Shown: one piece after another, positions 3,921-47,330 of the stretch | Position numbering within the stretch: the stretch's first letter is position 1 | How the letters are laid out: each line of letters opens with the position of its first letter | Source: an uncultured virus (IMG/VR IMGVR_UViG_3300002138_000152) | Lineage: Duplodnaviria; Heunggongvirae; Uroviricota; Caudoviricetes | Length of the DNA stretch: 64,000 nt | Strand: one strand, 5' to 3' | Virus record (IMG/VR): IMGVR_UViG_3300002138_000152 | Position numbers and translations under genes: made by a program | Notes under the pieces: model-generated | What the model was told of the DNA's origin: nothing | Database searches by the model: none | The model's input: the letters and a program-made list of their open reading frames with translations, nothing else

Positions 3921-5840
3921 TTATGATATTTTGTAATATCCTTGTTTTGTAATTCTAAAAACTATGGTTCCAGAATTATATTTTGTTAAAAATTTCACAT
4001 AATTTATTAAAGCTGAAATACTACCAGCAGTAGCGCCTGAAACTGGTCCTTGTGGTGGATATACATAATGTATAACATCACCATTTTGGTATTCCGGCCA
4101 GGCATCAGGTGTTTCTGTTTGTGTAAATATTCTAAAAGCTTGACCAGCACTATCAGTAATACGAGCCTGTAAAAATATATTTTTTAAATACTCAGCACCA
4201 CTTACAATTTCAAATTCTAAAAATGGTGAAATTGTGTTGACACCAGAAATTGCAATTGATCCGAAATTAAAAGTTCCAAAATTAGTTACGCCTGTGTTAC
4301 CTGTAAATGTACATAACATACCAGGATTCTTAGCTGTAAAAACAAATGTACCGCCTGTTAATCCTGTAGTAACAGTACCTGTGGCTACAGTACCTGTAGC
4401 TGGTGCTTGTGCTGCAATTGACCCTAATAATGTATAATTAGTAGAAACAATTGGTTTTTTACGCAACCAATTATTAGAGATACGACTAAATGTATCAGCA
4501 TTAATTCTAGCATTTCTTAATGTCCCTTTTACATTGGGGTGAACACTATTATCAGTAAATGGACAATGTGTGAAAGTTACAGTTGTATTTGTTCCTGATG
4601 CTGAAACTGTATAAGTACCAATGTCACCTGTTCCTGTTCCAAATGCTGTAATATAAAATGTTGATGCACCAATAAAAAAATAACTATTGATTTCTAATGG
4701 TACTACTGGTGATGACGTTACTGTAAGTGTTGTTCCACTGCGTGAACCTTGAACTGGGTATGTAATAGGTATTGATAGATCTGTAGGCTCAGAATATGAT
4801 ATCAGATCACTGCAAAATATTGTGTCATTATTATCTAATGATAATATGTAATCACGTATTTCCGCATAATTTGTTTTAAGTGTTGGTGTGGAATATGATA
4901 ATGATGGGTGGGGGGTATTCAATAATATTTTAACACCAACCCATCGTTCCTGAACCATATTAATCCACTTATCAATTGAAATTATCATCTGTGGTACTGT
5001 TTGTCCAGCGACAATATCATTTTCAACAAGTGCATACCCAATCGCAATATCAGGATATGGATTGTAATTTGCTAATCCAATTGGATTGAACCAATGTGTT
5101 TCTATATCACCAAGCATGGTAGCGAGAGTAGCTCCGCCTCTACCATAGATTCCAAATGCATCACAATATGTAGTTATAGTTGTTGGTGTGAACTCCATAC
5201 ATGAATCAGATATAGAATTTGCTATATGAATACCCTTTTGCATTCCTGATGATTGAGTAGATTGTGATAATACTGCAATAGAATTTCCAAATGCTACAGC
5301 TTTCATTAAATTCATTGAATCAGAAATCAAAACATATTTTGTTCCGTTCCATTTGTATGTTGTTCCCGTTTCTAAATTCAAGTACAGTCTATTAGACATA
5401 CCAGTATCTGGAAAATCCGCAACACTTGAATAACCAATTGTTGTAAAGAATGTACCAACTACAGCAGGAGTAATTGCTGATCTTGGATATTCATAACTCA
5501 AAAATGATATAAGATTACGTGGTTGATAGATATCAAGAAATGTTTCACTAACAGATGGAATTGCTGATAAATAATATCTATCAGTCCAATCAGCAGTTGG
5601 GATGTATTGATCAAAATCTGCTGCATCAATTTCATCACGTGTATATACAGCAAGATGACCGTCACGATCCGTATTCATAAATATGAAAAATTGTCTATAA
5701 TCAAATGTTGGATCAGGTGTTGCTGGAAGTGCTGGTATAGATGATTCTTCTGGAAAAAATGTCTTGTATGCAAATAATTGTTCAAGCATTTTACGATCGT
5801 GATCATTTTCTGGTACAATTTTAAATGTTCTGCTAGCCAT
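3921..5840 (-). CDS. virion/tail-associated protein with SGNH/GDSL-like domain
   Basis: AFGNSIA, YGRGGAT and SVHPNVKG blocks; Thr/Gly-rich beta C-terminus; TATATATA box upstream. Confidence 0.55.
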   Translation of the reverse strand: MASRTFKIVPENDHDRKMLEQLFAYKTFFPEESSIPALPATPDPTFDYRQFFIFMNTDRDGHLAVYTRDEIDAADFDQYIPTADWTDRYYLSAIPSVSETFLDIYQPRNLISFLSYEYPRSAITPAVVGTFFTTIGYSSVADFPDTGMSNRLYLNLETGTTYKWNGTKYVLISDSMNLMKAVAFGNSIAVLSQSTQSSGMQKGIHIANSISDSCMEFTPTTITTYCDAFGIYGRGGATLATMLGDIETHWFNPIGLANYNPYPDIAIGYALVENDIVAGQTVPQMIISIDKWINMVQERWVGVKILLNTPHPSLSYSTPTLKTNYAEIRDYILSLDNNDTIFCSDLISYSEPTDLSIPITYPVQGSRSGTTLTVTSSPVVPLEINSYFFIGASTFYITAFGTGTGDIGTYTVSASGTNTTVTFTHCPFTDNSVHPNVKGTLRNARINADTFSRISNNWLRKKPIVSTNYTLLGSIAAQAPATGTVATGTVTTGLTGGTFVFTAKNPGMLCTFTGNTGVTNFGTFNFGSIAISGVNTISPFLEFEIVSGAEYLKNIFLQARITDSAGQAFRIFTQTETPDAWPEYQNGDVIHYVYPPQGPVSGATAGSISALINYVKFLTKYNSGTIVFRITKQGYYKIS

Positions 5841-7494: not shown

Positions 7495-7565
7495 GCCTGC
7501 TTAGTGTAATGGAAGCACATGTGGATTCTACCCACAGAGTGAGGGTTCAAGTCCTTCAGCGGGTA
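7495..7565 (+). tRNA. tRNA-Arg(TCT)
   Basis: GCCTGCT/AGCGGGT, TGTGG-ATTCTAC-CCACA, GAGGG-TTCAAGT-CCTTC. Confidence 0.9.
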
Positions 7566-7572
7566 CTAAAAT

Positions 7573-35165: not shown

Positions 35166-36842
35166 ATGTTTAGCAACAAAAAAACACAATTGTTCCCGAC
35201 GCCTGCGAAAGCCGCGTCCTCGAACAGAGCATCTGCGACAACAAACGCATTTGTTGGGACTGCTATGAAGAAAGCAGCTGAGACACGTTCTGAGAACGGT
35301 GCTCTCAAATACAAAACTACAGGCGATGATTTCGTTGATCAATTCGGGAAACTGGGTGAAATGAAACAACCGCGTTCATTTGCAACCATTGCAAAAGATC
35401 AGGCATTACTATGGTCACAAAACAAACTACTTACTGTAGCATTCACATTATACATCCGTATGATTACTCGTGTAACTAATGTATTTGGAACTGAAACTTC
35501 TGTTTCACAGAAAGGTGCAGAACTTCGTCATGAGGGTATTATGCGAATGATTTGGTTGCATACAACAGCTCCAAAAACATTTTGGAATAACGTACCACTA
35601 ATGGTATCAGTTGGTTCGTGGCAAGACATCTTTACGATGCTTCAATACGATCTTGTCTATAATGGATGGGAAGGACGTAAACTTGACTGGACAAAGTTCG
35701 GTAAATTGATTCTTACTGGTCTTACAGATGAGACTCAAATGAACCTTGTTAAGAAATACCTTCCACAAATCAAAGCAAAATCAGCATGTAAGACTGTTGA
35801 AGCGCAAGCTGACAACATGATCGGAAAATGGTTGTGTTCTTTGATCTTCGGTACAAAAATTGGTCCAGAAGGTGCTACTTACAAAGCTTACCGTAAATTG
35901 AAAACTTCCGGAACAGCGCACGAGTGGCAGAAATTGATCTCGCAAGGTAAACACAAACTGGTTGATTTTAACACGATACACGGACGTGCTTTGAGTAAAC
36001 TGGTACGTTCTAAATACTTAGCGAACCAGAATCTTACTGAGAAGTATGAAAACTGGATCACAAAAGATTCAACAACTGATGTGAAATACACTGGATTTGT
36101 TCATGAACTTTTCGCAGGTCTTCCATCAACTGAAACTTCGTTGGGTGTTGCAAAATCGGAAACGATTAACAAACAATTTGCAACGCTTGTTAAGAAAGGT
36201 GGTAAAGGTGCAACAAACCTTATCGTTGTTCGTGATACATCTGGATCTATGGGTTCTACAGCAACAGGAACAAACATGAGCTGTTATAACATTGCGAAAG
36301 CTTTGGCATTATACTTCTCTGAGTTCTTGACTGGAACATTCCAAGATGCATGGATTGAGTTTAATAATAATGCACAAATGCATACTTGGAAAGGTACAAC
36401 ACCAATTAATCGTTGGTACAACGACCGTTCAAGCTATGTTGGAGGCACAAACTTCCAATCTGTTGTTGACTTGTTCATTAACATGAAACGCCAAGGTGTT
36501 GCTGAATCAGATTTTCCATCAGGAATTCTGTGTATCTCTGATGGTGAGTTCAATGCATCAGATTTAGGTAAAACAAATGTTGAGTCAGCTCGACGTAAGT
36601 TGACTACTGCTGGATTCAGTGCTGAGTATGTTCGTAACTTTGTGATTGTTCTTTGGAACCTTCAATCTGGATACGGATCACGTGGCAATAAATTTGAAAC
36701 CAACGGAGACGTTGAGAATGTATTTTATTTCTCTGGTTACTCAGCTGCAACTGTGTCGTTCTTAACGAATGATATCAAAACTGCTCGTGAGCTTTTCGAA
36801 GCTGCGATGAACCAGGAAGTTCTCTCAATGGTTCAAATCTAA
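35166..36842 (+). CDS. DUF2828-family protein (TROVE/Ro60-like helical domain plus vWA)
   Basis: SENGALKY, GSWQDI, KYLP, VVRDTSGSM (MIDAS), GGTNFQSV, CISDGEFN, VLWNL, FSGYS. Confidence 0.8.
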   Translation: MFSNKKTQLFPTPAKAASSNRASATTNAFVGTAMKKAAETRSENGALKYKTTGDDFVDQFGKLGEMKQPRSFATIAKDQALLWSQNKLLTVAFTLYIRMITRVTNVFGTETSVSQKGAELRHEGIMRMIWLHTTAPKTFWNNVPLMVSVGSWQDIFTMLQYDLVYNGWEGRKLDWTKFGKLILTGLTDETQMNLVKKYLPQIKAKSACKTVEAQADNMIGKWLCSLIFGTKIGPEGATYKAYRKLKTSGTAHEWQKLISQGKHKLVDFNTIHGRALSKLVRSKYLANQNLTEKYENWITKDSTTDVKYTGFVHELFAGLPSTETSLGVAKSETINKQFATLVKKGGKGATNLIVVRDTSGSMGSTATGTNMSCYNIAKALALYFSEFLTGTFQDAWIEFNNNAQMHTWKGTTPINRWYNDRSSYVGGTNFQSVVDLFINMKRQGVAESDFPSGILCISDGEFNASDLGKTNVESARRKLTTAGFSAEYVRNFVIVLWNLQSGYGSRGNKFETNGDVENVFYFSGYSAATVSFLTNDIKTARELFEAAMNQEVLSMVQI

Positions 36843-37387: not shown

Positions 37388-38101
37388 ATGGCAATTAATT
37401 TAGAAAAGATTGAAGAACGTAAACAATCCGTTATAAATCTTAAAAAAAACAAAGGTATTGAAACACAGAAGGCACAAGTTGTTTTATGTTTGGATTATTC
37501 AGGATCTATGGATGGTCTTTATCGATCTGGTGTCGTACAAGAAACACTTGAACGTGTTTTACCGCTCGGTTTAGCATTTGATGATAATGGTGAAGTTGAT
37601 TTTTATTTGTTTGAATCTGGTATTCGTAAGATGCCATCGAATATCACACTTGGAAATATTGATGGTTACATCAATGAAAAAGTGATGAATAAATATAGTA
37701 TGGGTGGAACAAATTATGCTCCAGCAATCAATGCTATTGTTAATGAATTTGCTGAAACTACTAAAAGTGGATTCTTTGGCAGTTCTAAACCAAAACAATT
37801 AGATCTTCCAGTATATGTAATTTTTATTACAGACGGTGAAAATTATGATGAAAGAGATGCAGAACGTGCAATGATTGAAGCATCTAAACATGGTATTTTC
37901 TTTCAATTTATTGGAATTGGTAATTCATCATTTCCATTTCTTGAAAAATTAGATGACATGCCTGGACGTGTTATTGATAATGCAGACTTTTTCACTGTTC
38001 GTGATTTGAAAAACACATCAGACGATGATCTTTACAAAAAAATGATGACAGAATTTCCTGAATGGATTAGAATGTCACGTCAAGCTGGACAAATTAAATA
38101 A
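37388..38101 (+). CDS. Ter-associated vWA protein (TerF C-terminal-like)
   Basis: LDYSGSM, GGTNYAPAI, FITDGEN, FFQFIGIG, LEKLDD..RVIDNADFF. Confidence 0.85.
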   Translation: MAINLEKIEERKQSVINLKKNKGIETQKAQVVLCLDYSGSMDGLYRSGVVQETLERVLPLGLAFDDNGEVDFYLFESGIRKMPSNITLGNIDGYINEKVMNKYSMGGTNYAPAINAIVNEFAETTKSGFFGSSKPKQLDLPVYVIFITDGENYDERDAERAMIEASKHGIFFQFIGIGNSSFPFLEKLDDMPGRVIDNADFFTVRDLKNTSDDDLYKKMMTEFPEWIRMSRQAGQIK

Positions 38102-38347: not shown

Positions 38348-38442
38348 AAAAATTCAAACAAATTTCTGTTATGCGAATATAAAACGTATAATTGCATAAC
38401 AGAACAAATGCGTTCATTGACATATTGGTACAAAAAAATAAA

Positions 38443-39247
38443 AAATAACATACAGCAATGTTTAATAACGGTTATGTCCGAAAGGACCTGTGTGTGAGCT
38501 GTCATCTGAAAAGACACGTATTGTAAATGGGATTGAGTAGATAACTCATTAAACGCTTGGAACCGTCCTGAATTACTTTACGTTATAAGAACTTAGTAAG
38601 TAGCATATCATGCAGTGATTGAATTAGCAAGCAGACAGATTGACTTATCATTAGTCTGAAATTCTTGCATGTTATTTGAACAAAAGATTTCTTACAGCAA
38701 ATATTCGTTTAAGCATCCTTATAGCTCGTGGTCGTAGGTTCGATTCCTGCTCTCGCAACAAATTAAAAAATAAATTGCGAGATAGCTCAGTGGTAGAGCA
38801 CGTAATAACAAAAACAGAAATCTGATAAGATTAGTTACAGCAAACAAAACAAACATCAAACTTTTACTTTGAACACGTTTAAAAACTCTAATCTGATAAG
38901 AAGTGTAACAGCAAAATCCTTTATGGTAAAAAATTTGACTCAAACTCAAAAATAGATGGTTCAAATCCGTCAGCTCGCCGGAGCATAAACGTCAACACTT
39001 CTGTACAAAGTCACTTACAGCAATTTTATAACACTGATTTTCTAACTCAATATGTTTAAAATGTGACTTGAAAAAAGAGCACTTACAGCAAACTTAAAAC
39101 TTTACTTTTTTTGGATAAAAGACGGGCAGGTTCGATTCCTGCGGTGCGCGAACACTCTCGGTGCGGATAAACTACACTGTGCTCTGATAAGGATACTTTC
39201 AGCAAATTAAAAAAATTTCATTTGGAGAAAAAACAATATGTATCCTG
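38443..39247 (+). ncRNA. array of seven stem-closed CAGCAA-motif RNAs with tRNA-derived payloads (Y-RNA-like)
   Basis: units 38443-38678, 38685-38824, 38828-38895, 38899-39003, 39008-39070, 39076-39186, 39190-39247; each is a 7-9 bp arm, CAGCAA, payload, complementary arm, G. Confidence 0.85.
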
Positions 39248-39320: not shown

Positions 39321-39352
39321 AAAAAAGGCCAGTCAAATTGACTGGCCTTTTT
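39321..39352. terminator. bidirectional terminator after RNA array
   Basis: AAAAAGGCCAGTCA-AAT-TGACTGGCCTTTTT. Confidence 0.85.
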
Positions 39353-40135: not shown

Positions 40136-40882
40136 ATGAGAGCACCAAAAGCGTTTTTAGAAAAATGTGGCAAGGAATGGTTTGACGATTACGTCTACCT
40201 TGCACGTCAACCACTTGAAGATCGTGGATTCGAGATCGTACCCTTTGATGGGACGTTCCTGGATGACTTTATTGAACGAACTGTATTTGGACCTGACGAT
40301 GTGCTTGTGGGCTCCGTAGAAGCAACGATTGCCTTCTGGAAAGCGTTAGGTTTTAAAGTTCCACGTTATATTGGATATCCAGTTGAATTTGAGAATGCTC
40401 TTTCACGTGCAATTACGATTTGCACATTTGAAGATATGGATTTAGAATTTCCATGTTTTATCAAACCTGCAAAAGATGTAAAGTTGTTTACAGGGTTTGT
40501 GATAGAAGACAAAAAATCATACAAACAGTTACACCTCACTTGTCCTGAATTAAAACCCGAAACAGTAGTTTATATTTCAGAAGTCATTGATTTTAAAAGT
40601 GAATACAGATGTTTTGTTCATAAAGGTAAATTAGTTGGTATCAAGCATTATGCAGGTAACTATCGTTTGTTTCCAGATATGGATTGGTTAGAAGAAGTTC
40701 TTGCTATAACATGGAAGCAAATGCCTGTTTCCTATACATTAGATATTGGTATAGATGATGGTCTGATGTACTTGGTTGAAATTAATGATTTCTGGGCTAT
40801 TGGTGGATATGGATTAGATGGTAAGACTTATGTCAGAATGCTTGTCGATCGTTTTCAGGAAATTAAATACAATAACATATAG
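40136..40882 (+). CDS. ATP-grasp protein (DUF4343/R2K-like)
   Basis: FIKPAKDVKLFTG, SEYRCFV, YTLDIG, LVEIND. Confidence 0.8.
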   Translation: MRAPKAFLEKCGKEWFDDYVYLARQPLEDRGFEIVPFDGTFLDDFIERTVFGPDDVLVGSVEATIAFWKALGFKVPRYIGYPVEFENALSRAITICTFEDMDLEFPCFIKPAKDVKLFTGFVIEDKKSYKQLHLTCPELKPETVVYISEVIDFKSEYRCFVHKGKLVGIKHYAGNYRLFPDMDWLEEVLAITWKQMPVSYTLDIGIDDGLMYLVEINDFWAIGGYGLDGKTYVRMLVDRFQEIKYNNI

Positions 40883-41459
40883 TTTTTATCATTATTTTTC
40901 TGTATATTTGTAAAAAATTATTTAAACAACATGAAAAAATTAATTCTATTTATTTTTGGCGTTTTTTTGTATATTCGTAAAAACAAATTATGAAACAGTC
41001 AGTTAAACTAGATGAATTTTCTGTTATGCTTACATATAAATGGACATGTCCAAATTGTCAACATCAAAATAATAGTCAATGTAATGTAAGTCCATATAGA
41101 ATTATTGCAGAAAATGGAACGTATGATTGCTGTAAAAAATGCGACGAAGGACATGATTTAACTTTTTACAATGAAGATTGATTGGAATTTTAATACCGAA
41201 GATTGGTGTTTTGAGTGTTCATCTGGATTTGCTGGATATCGCAATACAATAACAGACGAGTGGATCTATTCAAAAGATTATAATGATCGTATTAATATTT
41301 TAAATGAATTTAAAGCATTTAAAAAGATGCTTGAAGAAATGAATTACTATGAGGCATTCTCTAGTATGTTTATATCTTTATTTCAACCTCAAGATGAGGT
41401 TGCTGAAATAGAATTTATGAAATTCAAAGAATTTGGATTTTCAATTTATAAAGAAGGTA

Positions 41460-42194
41460 ATGATTAACTACACATATCAGGTATTTGGTTCACCATCATC
41501 ACAAGACATTGATGTTATGGTTTTTGTTGATGAACTTCGGTCTATTGACGACAACCATACACTTATCAAAGAACTCAATGTATATTTTGAAAACTTTGTA
41601 TCTGATGCATGTTTTGATGGTCGTAAAGTGAATGCAAACCTTGCTGTGTTGAAAGATGGTAAAATTATAGAGGTGTTTAAAGGTACTGCGGATGAGTGTA
41701 ACAACTCTTTGATGGATACGTACCAATTTCATCACCAAGCACATCCAAACCATGTTACAGCACGTTATGATCGATTTGATGAGTACTATCACATCAAATT
41801 AAAAAGAGTTGCTCGATTCATTATGTCATTCTTTTCACGTGAACCTGAATTGCGGCCATTGATCAAATCTGCACTACGTGGTGACATATTAGAACGTCTT
41901 GAGACGTTACGTCATATTGATTTTACAAAGTACAACACATTTCCTGGAAAGAAAGAGAAGCATGAAGATATCTACAAGGTATTAGCATTTCAATTTGCAC
42001 AGGTTTTTGGCCTTGCTAATCACCAGGAGATTTATACAAAAGAAGATGCAGCAATTCAATTTCCTGTATTGTATGGAGTGCTTGCACGTAAACCAATAAC
42101 AGTAGAGGATATTGAATACCTTAACATCTATTTACAGAAATTTATCATCATTGCTGCACTTGAAATGAACAGCATGGAATCACGTTACGAATAA
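41460..42194 (+). CDS. nucleotidyltransferase-like protein
   Basis: VFGSPSSQDIDVMVFV. Confidence 0.65.
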   Translation: MINYTYQVFGSPSSQDIDVMVFVDELRSIDDNHTLIKELNVYFENFVSDACFDGRKVNANLAVLKDGKIIEVFKGTADECNNSLMDTYQFHHQAHPNHVTARYDRFDEYYHIKLKRVARFIMSFFSREPELRPLIKSALRGDILERLETLRHIDFTKYNTFPGKKEKHEDIYKVLAFQFAQVFGLANHQEIYTKEDAAIQFPVLYGVLARKPITVEDIEYLNIYLQKFIIIAALEMNSMESRYE

Positions 42195-43644: not shown

Positions 43645-44805
43645 ATGCCATTAGAAATACAAACATTACTTCGTCTACATGGATTACAACATGTTAAAGA
43701 TTATCTTAAACTTGATGTTAAAGAGAAAGACAATCTTGTTCTTTTGAAATACCGTCAATTAGATGCAGACTGGACTAAAACAGCATTGTATGATTGTCGA
43801 GGTATTATTCTTGATCGCACTAATGCAGACTGGAATATAGTTTCTTTTCCATATAATAAGTTCTTCAACATTGGTGAAGGATATTGTGCTAAGATTGATT
43901 GGGACACTGCAAAATTCTATGAAAAAGCTGATGGATCTTTGATCAATATTTATTTCTACAATGGTATTTGGAATGTACAGACATCCGGAACAATTGATGG
44001 TTTATTTCGAACAAGTGGCGGTGAAATGACTTTTGCTGAACTCTTTTGGTTTTCCGTAAAAGAAATGTATTCATCTGTTGAAAACTTCATTGCTCGTCTT
44101 GACGTAAATAACAATTACATGTTTGAGCTTTGTACTCCTTACAATATTGTTGTTACACAACATAATGATTTTACTGTCAAATTACATGGTGTTCGTAATA
44201 TGCAAACACTTAAGTATGTCGATATCGAAACAATTGATCTTGTACGAGTAAAGACTTACGATTTGAAACATGTGGACGATATGATTGCACAATTCGAAGA
44301 TATGTCTTGGCAAGAAGAAGGTTTCGTTGTATGTGATGCAAACTTCAACCGTGCAAAATGTAAGAACCCAAAATATGTTGCAGTTCATCACGTTGCGACC
44401 GGTGTGAGTCCTTATGCAATCATGAACGTTATCAAGACAAACGAGATTGATGAGTACCTTGTGTATTTCACTGCTCGTGAAGAAGAACTTCGTGAATTGA
44501 TGCGCAAATGGAAAGCAGAAGAAGCTATGCTTACTGAGTTGTATAACAAAGTGTATATTGAGAATCTTAACGTGTATGAAGAAAAATCACGTATTCCACG
44601 TGAAGGTGTTACTGAAACAGATGTTCTACGAAGTGCAGAGCTCAACAAAGAGTTTGCAATGCGTGTTCGTGAACATGTTCCAAAAGTATACCATGGTGTA
44701 ATGTTTGCACTTCGAAACAAATCTATTGCATCTATTCACGAAGGGATGTGTACATTCTCCGATGGATATTGGTTTACCAAATTTAACGGTCCATTGAAAA
44801 AATAA
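43645..44805 (+). CDS. RNA ligase, T4 Rnl1-like
   Basis: CRGIIL, PYNKFFNIGE, EKADGSL (motif I), FEL..NIVV, EEGFVV, KCKNPKY. Confidence 0.9.
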   Translation: MPLEIQTLLRLHGLQHVKDYLKLDVKEKDNLVLLKYRQLDADWTKTALYDCRGIILDRTNADWNIVSFPYNKFFNIGEGYCAKIDWDTAKFYEKADGSLINIYFYNGIWNVQTSGTIDGLFRTSGGEMTFAELFWFSVKEMYSSVENFIARLDVNNNYMFELCTPYNIVVTQHNDFTVKLHGVRNMQTLKYVDIETIDLVRVKTYDLKHVDDMIAQFEDMSWQEEGFVVCDANFNRAKCKNPKYVAVHHVATGVSPYAIMNVIKTNEIDEYLVYFTAREEELRELMRKWKAEEAMLTELYNKVYIENLNVYEEKSRIPREGVTETDVLRSAELNKEFAMRVREHVPKVYHGVMFALRNKSIASIHEGMCTFSDGYWFTKFNGPLKK

Positions 44806-46347: not shown

Positions 46348-46800
46348 ATGAGTATCTACCACAATTTAGAAGCAATGACTCAACTTGCTTTACACGAAGC
46401 AAGAGAACACAACTGTAATTACAATGTGATCCTATTCAATCCTGATGAGAATGGTGAATTTTCTGCAGAACGAGGTTCTACATACGAAATGGTTGCAGAC
46501 TCTTATTTTGAGAAGCCGCGACCAAATGTGAAGCTTATCACTACAACAGGTGAAATAATGCTTCAGGAAGCGCGTGAGGCTATTGAAAATGGAATTGTAT
46601 CTATTGAAACTGACGGATTTCCTATTCATGAACTACTTGATTCAAAATACATGGATTTCAAAGAATCTGCACACATCAGTAAACTAATGGAAGAAATGCC
46701 TCCACGAATTCCACAGTATGTTCGTTCAGAACGTAAGGTTGGAAACAACGAAACCTGTCCGTGTGGAAGTGGTGCAAAGTACAAAAGATGCTGTAAATAA
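46348..46800 (+). CDS. SEC-C motif protein
   Basis: KVGNNETCPCGSGAKYKRCC. Confidence 0.85.
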   Translation: MSIYHNLEAMTQLALHEAREHNCNYNVILFNPDENGEFSAERGSTYEMVADSYFEKPRPNVKLITTTGEIMLQEAREAIENGIVSIETDGFPIHELLDSKYMDFKESAHISKLMEEMPPRIPQYVRSERKVGNNETCPCGSGAKYKRCCK

Positions 46801-47330
46801 TGGGATGTCAATTGGAAGAGAAAGATTTAATCCTTGCTGATCTGCAACAAGAGAAACCATTTGTTATTTATCTTGATATTGATGGTGTGCTTGTCTCTTA
46901 TATGGAGTTACATTCCTGGCATGAAGATGGACATCACAACTTCAAAGCAACAGCAGTAGACGCATTAAATCAACTCATTGCGATGTTTGATGCTGAGATC
47001 TGTATTGTATCTTCTTGGGTGTCATTTTTTAAAAGTGACGAAGATTGGCTTGCATTCTTGCAATCACGTGGAGTAATTGTAAATCGTGTTACACGTGGCC
47101 AATCACATAATAGACCTGAGTTTGTTATTGAAAGAAGAAAAGAAGGTTATAAAAGATTTCTTATTATTGATGATGAAGCACTTTTCTATATTACAAGGTA
47201 TAAAGAGATTGGATATAACAGAATTATAGCAACAAATCCTGTACGTTGTTTAGATGAATCTGATGTACTTTGGACAGCTAGACAGTTTAGTCGTATATCC
47301 AATCCAGATTATCCAAAATATCAATCCTGA
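46800..47330 (+). CDS. HAD domain protein (RNA-repair-associated HAD_SAK-like)
   Basis: YLDIDGVL, IVSSW, FLIIDDE. Confidence 0.75.
   Translation: MGCQLEEKDLILADLQQEKPFVIYLDIDGVLVSYMELHSWHEDGHHNFKATAVDALNQLIAMFDAEICIVSSWVSFFKSDEDWLAFLQSRGVIVNRVTRGQSHNRPEFVIERRKEGYKRFLIIDDEALFYITRYKEIGYNRIIATNPVRCLDESDVLWTARQFSRISNPDYPKYQS

What the first reader, a model, noticed from the sequence alone, without database searches (positions are those of the whole stretch)
38856..39230. Array payloads look like a panel of anticodon stem-loop decoys
Seen: 7-nt loops with U at position 33. Unit 3 has TCAAA-CTTTTAC-TTTGA (Lys UUU). Unit 4 has TTTGA-CTCAAAC-TCAAA (Leu CAA) plus a T-arm. Unit 6 has CTTTT-TTTGGAT-AAAAG (Pro UGG) plus a T-arm. 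Unit 7 has TTTC-ATTTGGA-GAAA (Gln UUG). Unit 5 weakly shows TTTCTAA (Arg UCU). None has an acceptor end. Known: tRNA-Lys(UUU) is the target of PrrC and PARIS AriB. Inference: non-chargeable baits that titrate anticodon nucleases or report their activity. The stems are AT-rich, so some may be chance.
Basis: partly seen in the sequence, partly recalled or inferred. Interest (0 to 1): 0.75.

Follow-up and report, generated by a model that had tools for sequence, protein, structure and literature searches.

The report
Phage RNAs mimicking tRNA anticodon arms
A large bacteriophage carries, beside a gene for a Ro60-like RNA-binding ring protein, a row of small RNA genes that each hang one piece of a tRNA on a shared handle, some being just the anticodon arm of lysine or arginine tRNA; they cannot decode, and may act as bait for bacterial defence enzymes that cut tRNA.

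Summary
Observation largely confirmed, refined. Seven units (7-bp stem + ACAGCAA handle + payload) lie downstream of a DUF7788 gene whose model has the Ro60 fold (Z 17.5). In homologous arrays, 50 of 187 short payloads carry a hairpin whose 7-nt loop is letter-identical to a real tRNA anticodon loop (shuffles 1.2). These are mostly Lys-UUU, Thr-UGU and Arg-UCU, and anticodons switch on otherwise identical scaffolds. Units 3 (Lys) and 5 (Arg) have this form; unit 4 (Leu) is plausible. Unit 6 'Pro' is unsupported as an identity, and unit 7 'Gln' may be a D-loop-like GG hairpin. A per-genome 'panel' is weak (14 of 78 arrays have ≥2). Free stems point to a loop-reading partner (PrrC-like), not AriB's stem site (2 of 49). 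Decoy function is inferred (about 0.45) and untested; no expression data. No paper found in nine searches; this scan noted the same class earlier on other DNA (e1-7989412, e1-6473664, e1-5747852).

The parts
35166..36842 (+). DUF7788/DUF2828-family gene, 558 aa, Ro60/TROVE-vWA ring fold; inferred binder of the handle
   Evidence: Pfam DUF7788 E 3.6e-12; PHROG 850 RNA-binding protein E 1.9e-36; model pLDDT 86; Foldseek top hits Ro60/Rsr/phage Ro60, E 4e-8 to 2e-5; VIA Z 17.5, rmsd 4.5, 437 aligned to 1yvp
38417..38446 (+). sigma-70-like promoter candidate just before unit 1
   Evidence: 10 of 12 consensus matches; 3 such sites found vs 3.7 expected in shuffles, so not significant
38443..38677 (+). 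Unit 1: handle with a 212-nt payload of unknown kind
38685..38823 (+). Unit 2: handle with permuted tRNA elbow (T arm 38734-38750, sealed acceptor helix, D arm 38785-38799); YrlA-like layout
   Evidence: Rfam YrlA 35.6 bits, E 7.6e-6, below cut-off 69; fold; coordinates
38828..38894 (+). Unit 3: anticodon-arm mimic, Lys-UUU; D-stem strands 38851-38854 and 38877-38880, A26 38855, ASL 38856-38872 (5 of 5 pairs; C38 instead of the usual A38)
   Evidence: the identical copy in L001 stands for it in the tables
38899..39002 (+). Unit 4: D-loop remnant 38919-38930, ASL 38934-38950 (Leu-CAA-like), T arm 38955-38971, short sealed helix 38973-38984; no CCA
   Evidence: Rfam tRNA positions 10-63, 26.8 bits; folds
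39008..39069 (+). Unit 5: anticodon-arm mimic, Arg-UCU; D-stem strands 39030-39032 and 39054-39056, ASL 39034-39050 (3 of 5 pairs), loop identical to real Arg-UCU loops
   Evidence: same loop and same 31-39 mismatch on another stem in L069
39076..39185 (+). Unit 6: U/A hairpin 39105-39121 at tRNA spacing before T arm 39126-39142, with a GG-bearing tail; anticodon identity not established
   Evidence: 9 like units, loops differ
39190..39246 (+). Unit 7: short GG-loop hairpin 39216-39230; Gln-UUG loop or D-loop mimic
   Evidence: best Rfam Class I RNA match, 33.7 bits, cut-off 41.5; the L001 copy changes one G to A
39322..39352 (+). Intrinsic terminator closing the array
   Evidence: 14-pair stem with T tail

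Best explanation
The array encodes small Y-RNA-like molecules of a DUF7788/DUF2828 Ro60-fold system. A constant handle (7-bp stem closing the ends plus single-stranded ACAGCAA) is clamped by the ring protein (inferred), and each unit displays one module of the tRNA L-shape: the elbow (unit 2), an ASL plus T arm (units 4, 6), or a circularly permuted D-stem/anticodon arm (units 3, 5). The anticodon-arm class keeps a true C/U32-U33-N-N-U36-A37-A38 loop on stems of free sequence (shown by comparison). Most likely these are stabilised, non-chargeable baits that occupy or are cut by loop-reading anticodon nucleases or modifying toxins aimed at Lys-UUU, Thr-UGU and Arg-UCU tRNAs, and so spare the tRNA pool the phage needs (inferred). 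The D stem may be kept so that the mimic has tRNA shape and can receive t6A37/U34 modifications (inferred). Shown: anatomy, selection on loop, pairing and D stem, anticodon bias and switching, Ro fold, linkage. Inferred: transcription, processing, protein binding, bait function.
For: Loops identical to real tRNA loops in 50 of 187 short payloads vs 1.2+-1.1. Chosen on loop alone (CTNNTAA), 42 of 47 have >=4 of 5 stem pairs vs 7.4%. D-stem mimic in 35 of 93 vs 0.3, linker always 3 or 4 of 1-6 allowed; five complementary D-stem types among the U33 loops, and chosen on geometry alone U33 42, U36 42, A37 41 of 49. Pattern scan without the protein: 44 of 46 handle-closed matches have the stem vs 1 of 9 without handle. 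0 of 104 cores copy a real tRNA stem of the same anticodon; 24 different stems carry the Lys loop; six scaffolds occur with different anticodons. [quoted passage not shown] A Ro60-like gene of phage Bas63 upstream of its tRNA stretch counters the Ppl defence (PMC11482910); FelixO1 has a homolog of this protein in that position with two handle units.
Against: No binding, cleavage, protection or expression data. A catalytic nuclease is hard to titrate with a cleavable bait (general knowledge). For P2-OLD, rescue by phage tRNA was replacement and not competition; for AriB competition is only raised as possible. Unmodified tRNA-Lys is a poorer PrrC substrate. AriB site in 2 of 49, OLD paired CNG in 2 of 49. 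Only 14 of 78 arrays hold two or more short anticodon units. Roughly half of short payloads are not anticodon-like, and most long ones are elbows, which a nuclease-bait idea does not explain. The U36-A37-A38 bias fits t6A enzymes or synthetases as well. Unit 3 has C38. One complete phage with a Lys unit shows no detectable gene of this family (G011). Ppl was proposed to cut DNA, not tRNA.
Confidence: 0.45

Rival explanations
1. Tethers, as Y RNAs are: each payload docks a different tRNA-recognising host or phage enzyme (t6A or U34 modification enzymes, Lys/Thr/Arg synthetases, PNPase, ligases) onto the Ro ring to mature, repair or clear phage RNAs.
For: Ro60 fold; phage phiLo Ro60 with its Y-like RNAs recruits host PNPase (PMC12135203); the array presents several tRNA modules, not only anticodons; U36-A37-A38 in 40 of 72 loops vs 1.0 is the t6A signal (recalled); RNA ligase and HAD repair genes lie within 8 kb in this window.
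Against: Other U36 tRNAs that are common as real genes here (Met-CAU 68, Asn 29, Ile 19 of 201) are rare in the units (0, 2, 1 of 49); no repair gene is a conserved neighbour in 79 loci; anticodon switching on fixed scaffolds looks more like conflict.
Confidence: 0.25
2. Sensors: a cut in the displayed loop frees or activates the Ro ring (or leaves a cyclic-phosphate end) and so starts a counter-response; a few molecules suffice.
For: Canonical, probably cleavable loops on weak A/U stems (GC 22% vs 53% in real tRNAs); one or two anticodon units per array is enough for a sensor; avoids the stoichiometry problem.
Against: No conserved regulator or effector beside the arrays; no output is apparent.
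Confidence: 0.13
3. Offensive mimics: they titrate host synthetases or modification enzymes, or enter the ribosome decoding site, to bias or shut down host translation.
For: Real anticodons only (A34 in 1 of 76); the phage's near twin has about 26 tRNA-like genes of its own.
Against: Lys-UUU decoding is what an AT-rich phage needs most; it encodes its own canonical tRNA-Lys(UUU) that would suffer too.
Confidence: 0.1
4. Neutral debris: handles inserted into tRNA gene arrays, payloads are decaying tRNA pieces or chance A/U hairpins.
For: Many units sit in tRNA clusters, and a handle inserted inside a tRNA-like gene is seen in L245 and L251; single hairpins fold no better than shuffles.
Against: Stems have turned over completely yet still pair, loops stay canonical, and the D stem is rebuilt in permuted order; all 374 payloads are on the gene's strand.
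Confidence: 0.04

Closest known systems
YrlA-type Y RNAs with Rsr/Ro60 (Rfam RF02553; Chen et al. 2014, PMC4201824; phage phiLo Ro60-Yrl1/2, PMC12135203)
   Same: Small RNA with a stem joining its ends, encoded on the same strand within 4 kb of a Ro-fold gene, carrying a tRNA-like domain; unit 2 has the T arm-sealed acceptor-D arm order.
   Different: Protein is DUF7788/DUF2828, about 10% identical to Ro60; handle motif is ACAGCAA, not GNCGAAN0-1G; units come in tandem arrays; payloads include an anticodon-arm module, which YrlA lacks in the passages read.
Dictyostelid Class I RNAs (Rfam RF01414; Kjellin et al. 2021, PMC7919456)
   Same: Short terminal stem, CUUACAGCAA-type motif next to the 5' strand, AAG start and CUG end, variable interior, many copies; five units match the model.
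   Different: Scores 17.7-33.7 bits, below the 41.5 cut-off; phage tandem array rather than separate eukaryotic genes; tRNA-like payloads; the paper found none outside Dictyostelia.
Phage tRNAs that neutralise anticodon nucleases (T5 tRNA-Lys/Thr/Asn vs PARIS, PMC11464382 and PMC12409363; tRNA-Thr vs P2-OLD, PMC12445682)
   Same: [quoted passage not shown]
   Different: Those are whole, chargeable, cleavage-resistant tRNAs that replace the lost host tRNA; these have no acceptor end and keep the loop canonical, so they can only compete, sense or tether.
Bas63 gp130, Ro60-like counter of Ppl (PMC11482910)
   Same: Ro-fold phage protein upstream of a tRNA stretch with an anti-defence phenotype; FelixO1 ORF86 (25% identical to this protein over 63% of it) has two handle units downstream.
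   Different: No RNA partner was identified in the passages read; that gp130 is the ORF86 orthologue is my inference, not tested by sequence.

Membership tests
YrlA Y RNA / Rsr system | Ro60-fold protein encoded nearby on the same strand | tested here: met
   (Z 17.5, rmsd 4.5, 437 aligned); gene ends 1.6 kb before the array; Pfam names it DUF7788, TROVE not listed
YrlA Y RNA / Rsr system | GNCGAAN0-1G motif near the 5' end | tested here: not met
   all seven units have nnWCAGCAA there; motif definition from PMC4201824
YrlA Y RNA / Rsr system | T arm, sealed acceptor helix, D arm | tested here: met
   unit 2 only; units 3-7 do not have this layout
YrlA Y RNA / Rsr system | Rfam RF02553 gathering score 69 | tested here: not met
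   35.6 bits for unit 2, none for units 3-7
YrlA Y RNA / Rsr system | RNA is bound by the ring protein | not testable with these tools
   linkage only
Dictyostelid Class I RNA | Terminal stem with the 11-nt motif beside its 5' strand; AAG start, CUGU end | tested here: met
   in 374 homologous units the stem starts AG in 264 and ends CTGA in 186, CTGT in 69
Dictyostelid Class I RNA | Rfam RF01414 gathering score 41.5 | tested here: not met
   best 33.7 bits
Dictyostelid Class I RNA | DUSE promoter about 60 nt upstream of each gene | not tested
   units are 4-7 nt apart, which leaves no separate upstream element; motif not searched
tRNA gene | Complete cloverleaf with open acceptor stem | tested here: not met
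   no ARAGORN call; Rfam partial match under cut-off; no CCA
Anticodon-nuclease decoy | 7-nt U33/R37 loops of real anticodons conserved across homologs | tested here: met
Anticodon-nuclease decoy | Carries the AriB cleavage context U36AAUC|A41 | tested here: not met
   2 of 49 (9 of 49 for the first five bases), absent from units 3 and 5
Anticodon-nuclease decoy | Binds or is cut by a nuclease and protects the phage | not testable with these tools
   needs bench work

The most novel reading that the evidence does not exclude
Large phages run an RNA-based, retargetable counter-defence: a Ro-fold clamp stabilises an array of minimal tRNA modules, among them a circularly permuted D-stem/anticodon arm whose anticodon is switched by single changes to follow whichever tRNA the host's nucleases attack. 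The same handle is the Class I RNA motif of social amoebae, which would make those orphan RNAs Y-like partners of a Ro-fold protein.
Probability: 0.35. Interest if true: 0.9.

Novelty: new variant of a known kind. Interest (0 to 1): 0.74.

Why it matters
tRNA cutting is a main effector route of bacterial immunity, and the known phage answers are replacement tRNAs and repair enzymes. A non-chargeable anticodon-arm mimic would be a third, RNA-sponge route, and the anticodon spectrum of these units would map which tRNAs are attacked in uncultured hosts. It also gives a testable RNA partner to a widespread unnamed Ro-fold family (DUF2828/DUF7788), one likely member of which already has an anti-defence phenotype, and a lead on the function of Dictyostelium Class I RNAs. 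Cultured phages carry Lys-UUU units (Leptolyngbya phage Lbo-JY46, Bacillus subtilis phage PJN02), so it can be tested directly.

Tried and rejected
No whole genome is held for the window; the 99%-identical record behind L001 served instead. Sequence search of PDB found nothing; the Ro link rests on structure. Folding energy of single units is uninformative. The G37-with-NNG correlation (12 of 15) was dropped as evidence because it is confounded with the GG-loop class. The anticodon counts were not used for frequencies, since the pattern fixed the loop and excluded A35. A non-redundant 'panel' per array was tested and is not significant. No conserved neighbour besides the gene used for selection; Pfam on 61 of 68 long ORFs near units without that gene gave no TROVE-like hit. 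Promoter scan not above chance. T loops, which are also 7 nt with U second, were excluded from the counts. The geometry-only selection has no shuffle control of its own. Paper searches listed no paper on this handle or on anticodon-arm mimics beside Ro-fold genes; the library lacks most subscription journals, and I opened no supplements (those of PMC4201824 and PMC11482910 could bear on novelty). Whether Dictyostelia encode a DUF2828/7788 protein was not tested.

Full report
Setting. The window is an AT-rich large phage: the 558-aa gene at 35166-36842 is 99% identical to one on a 314-kb viral contig (L001). Between 38443 and 39246 lie seven head-to-tail units, each a 7-bp stem strand, nnWCAGCAA, a payload of 34-212 nt, the partner strand and GA, closed by a terminator at 39322-39352. 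Rfam gives three telling matches under cut-off: YrlA for unit 2 (35.6 bits), Dictyostelium Class I RNA for five units (17.7-33.7 bits) and tRNA positions 10-63 for unit 4 (26.8 bits). The upstream protein is DUF7788; its model (pLDDT 86) matches Ro60, Rsr and phage phiLo Ro60 over the whole ring (Z 17.5 against about 10.5 for vWA-only rows).

All five are present and there is no CCA. Alone they fold no better than shuffled sequence, so I tested them across homologs. Arrays were parsed in 111 of 181 sequences (the window and 180 loci chosen by the protein, duplicates included): 510 units, 374 distinct payloads, all on the gene's strand. After clustering at 80% identity, 348 remained, 187 of them short and without a T arm (the window's own short units included). 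A >=4-bp stem with a Y-U-N-N-N-R-N loop occurs in 72 against 10.8+-3.2 in 200 shuffles; at >=5 bp, 44 against 3.9. In 50 the loop is letter-identical to one of 63 loops seen at least twice among 497 ARAGORN tRNAs of the same loci that lie away from handles (shuffles 1.2+-1.1). To avoid selecting on the stem I chose on the loop alone: 42 of 47 CTNNTAA words sit on >=4 of 5 pairs, against 7.4%.

What the mimic is. The flanks of the hairpin are ordered too. In tRNA numbering (recalled), a C at 25 and A at 26 precede the stem-loop, and 3-4 nt after it comes a G-led triplet that pairs with positions 25-24-23. That is the D stem in permuted order, with the D loop opened onto the handle and the acceptor and T arms left out. 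It is found in 35 of 93 relaxed hairpins against 0.3+-0.5, always at linker 3 or 4 of the 1-6 allowed, in complementary types AAC/GTT 27, AGC/GCT 11, TGC/GCA 4, ATC/GAT 3, others 4. Selecting on this geometry alone (49 units, loop free) returns U33 in 42, U36 in 42, A37 in 41, A38 in 40, and anticodons Lys-UUU 16, Thr-UGU 9, Arg-UCU 6, Lys-CUU 3, Thr-CGU 2, Gln-UUG 2, Asn-GUU 2, nine others. Stems are not inherited from tRNA genes: 0 of 104 cores match a real stem of the same anticodon, their GC is 22% against 53%, 24 different stems carry the Lys loop, and six scaffolds occur with two or three different real anticodons, mostly by a change at position 35. Long payloads are other tRNA modules: of 161, 55 are T-then-D elbows like unit 2, and 29 have an anticodon-like hairpin before a T arm. 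In 49 non-permuted T-arm payloads such hairpins fall at tRNA spacing (13-15 nt: 9 against 1.6) or long-variable-arm spacing (30-37 nt: 17 against about 2.5, two payloads counted in two registers).

Unit 6 has the right spacing, but among 9 like units the loops differ and U33 holds in 4; real Pro loops here have G37. Unit 7 belongs with 66 short payloads whose hairpin loop holds GG and varies from 4 to 11 nt (25 are 7 nt); many read like D loops. In its favour as Gln, the same loop is in one real tRNA-Gln (L190), and the L001 copy changes a G to A, which keeps a purine at 37 but loses GG. I leave it open. Of 78 distinct arrays, 56 have a short anticodon unit and 14 have two or more; one repeats an anticodon against 2.2 expected (P = 0.29). 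The panel is mainly a property of the family.

Linkage. Among the 55 pattern matches, 16 have a family gene within the 4-kb flanks, all on the same strand. Of 10 records without one nearby, 7 have DUF2828 or DUF7788 elsewhere (4 of 5; 3 of 5); the other three, among them one complete 171-kb phage, show none with alignment A1 either. No other neighbour recurs in 79 loci. The family reaches 359 GenBank phage records; handle units were found in 5 of 6 named phages fetched, with Lys-UUU units in Lbo-JY46 and PJN02 and two non-anticodon units in FelixO1.

Mechanism. Selection keeps loop letters, pairing and the D stem, but not stem letters, so the partner reads the loop and the arm's shape. PrrC cuts tRNA-Lys in the loop and prefers modified substrate (PMC13191261, passages). 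[quoted passage not shown] The anticodon spectrum matches these targets and differs from the phages' real tRNAs (U36 42 of 49 vs 201 of 499; Lys-UUU + Thr-UGU 25 of 42 vs 49 of 201, no correction for kinship). A Ro60-like gene of Bas63 counters the Ppl defence (PMC11482910, passages). I therefore favour protected bait for loop-reading anticodon nucleases or modifiers (0.45), ahead of tether (0.25; phiLo Ro60 and its RNAs bind PNPase, PMC12135203, one of six parts and passages), sensor (0.13), attack on host translation (0.10) and debris (0.04). Against the bait idea: phage tRNA rescue of OLD was not competitive, catalytic enzymes are hard to titrate, and elbow and GG payloads need another reading.

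Known systems and novelty. It works like a Y RNA/Ro60 system but fails YrlA's motif and score (PMC4201824, passages). The handle has the build of Class I RNAs, reported only from Dictyostelia (PMC7919456, passages), below the Rfam cut-off. A jumbo-phage survey notes ROT/TROVE proteins with a tRNA-like partner in general terms (PMC7824862, passages). Nine searches listed no paper on these units. This scan's earlier AI notes describe the same class in other genomes; they are unchecked, arrived after my own tests in the case, and are not counted as evidence. A word search for the permuted D stem in those notes returned nothing, which does not show that it was not seen. Verdict: a real, selected RNA feature; new variant of the Y RNA/Ro kind; decoy function plausible and directly testable. 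Interest 0.74.

Noticed in passing
L245 and L251, just upstream of the pattern match: A whole tRNA-like gene with a circularly permuted handle (3' strand, short loop, 5' strand, ACAGCAA) inserted between D arm and anticodon arm; a possible route by which handles captured tRNA parts.
   Followed up: no
L243 (giant-virus MAG contig), match at 4001-4039 minus strand: An Arg-UCU anticodon-arm unit with D-stem mimic in a giant virus of eukaryotes.
   Followed up: no
window 38459-38670: Unit 1 carries a 212-nt payload with no tRNA feature or meaningful Rfam match; L003 has payloads of 223 and 268 nt.
   Followed up: no
window 7495-7566 and near-twin record G002: The phage's own tRNA-Arg(UCU) has a non-canonical loop (A32, C38) while unit 5 displays a canonical Arg-UCU loop; some Gln, Pro and Lys calls in G002 also have odd loops, others are canonical.
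   Followed up: partly
L005, L016, L026, L063, L109, L123, L171, L175 and others: A further payload class: anticodon-like hairpin, mostly ending in A36-A37, then a long GC-rich variable arm and a T arm with no acceptor strand.
   Followed up: partly
window 40136-40882, 41433-42194, 43645-44805, 46800-47330: R2K ATP-grasp, an unannotated ORF with a nucleotidyltransferase-like D-x-D motif (recalled, no Pfam or PHROG hit), T4-type RNA ligase and HAD 'Swiss Army Knife' phosphatase: an RNA-repair neighbourhood, not conserved beside other arrays.
   Followed up: partly
window 37388-38101: vWA-TerF-like gene between the Ro-fold gene and the array; seen in only 2 of 79 loci; L242 has TerC and TerD beside a 10-handle array.
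   Followed up: no
G011 (record behind L257): Complete 171-kb phage with a Lys-UUU handle unit but no detectable DUF7788-family gene; may use a host or more distant protein.
   Followed up: partly
L347:6661-7010, L348:8538 and 9079, L350, L351, L352: Unannotated handle units in cultured phages Lbo-JY46, FelixO1, EFDG1, PJN02 and J2-1.
   Followed up: partly
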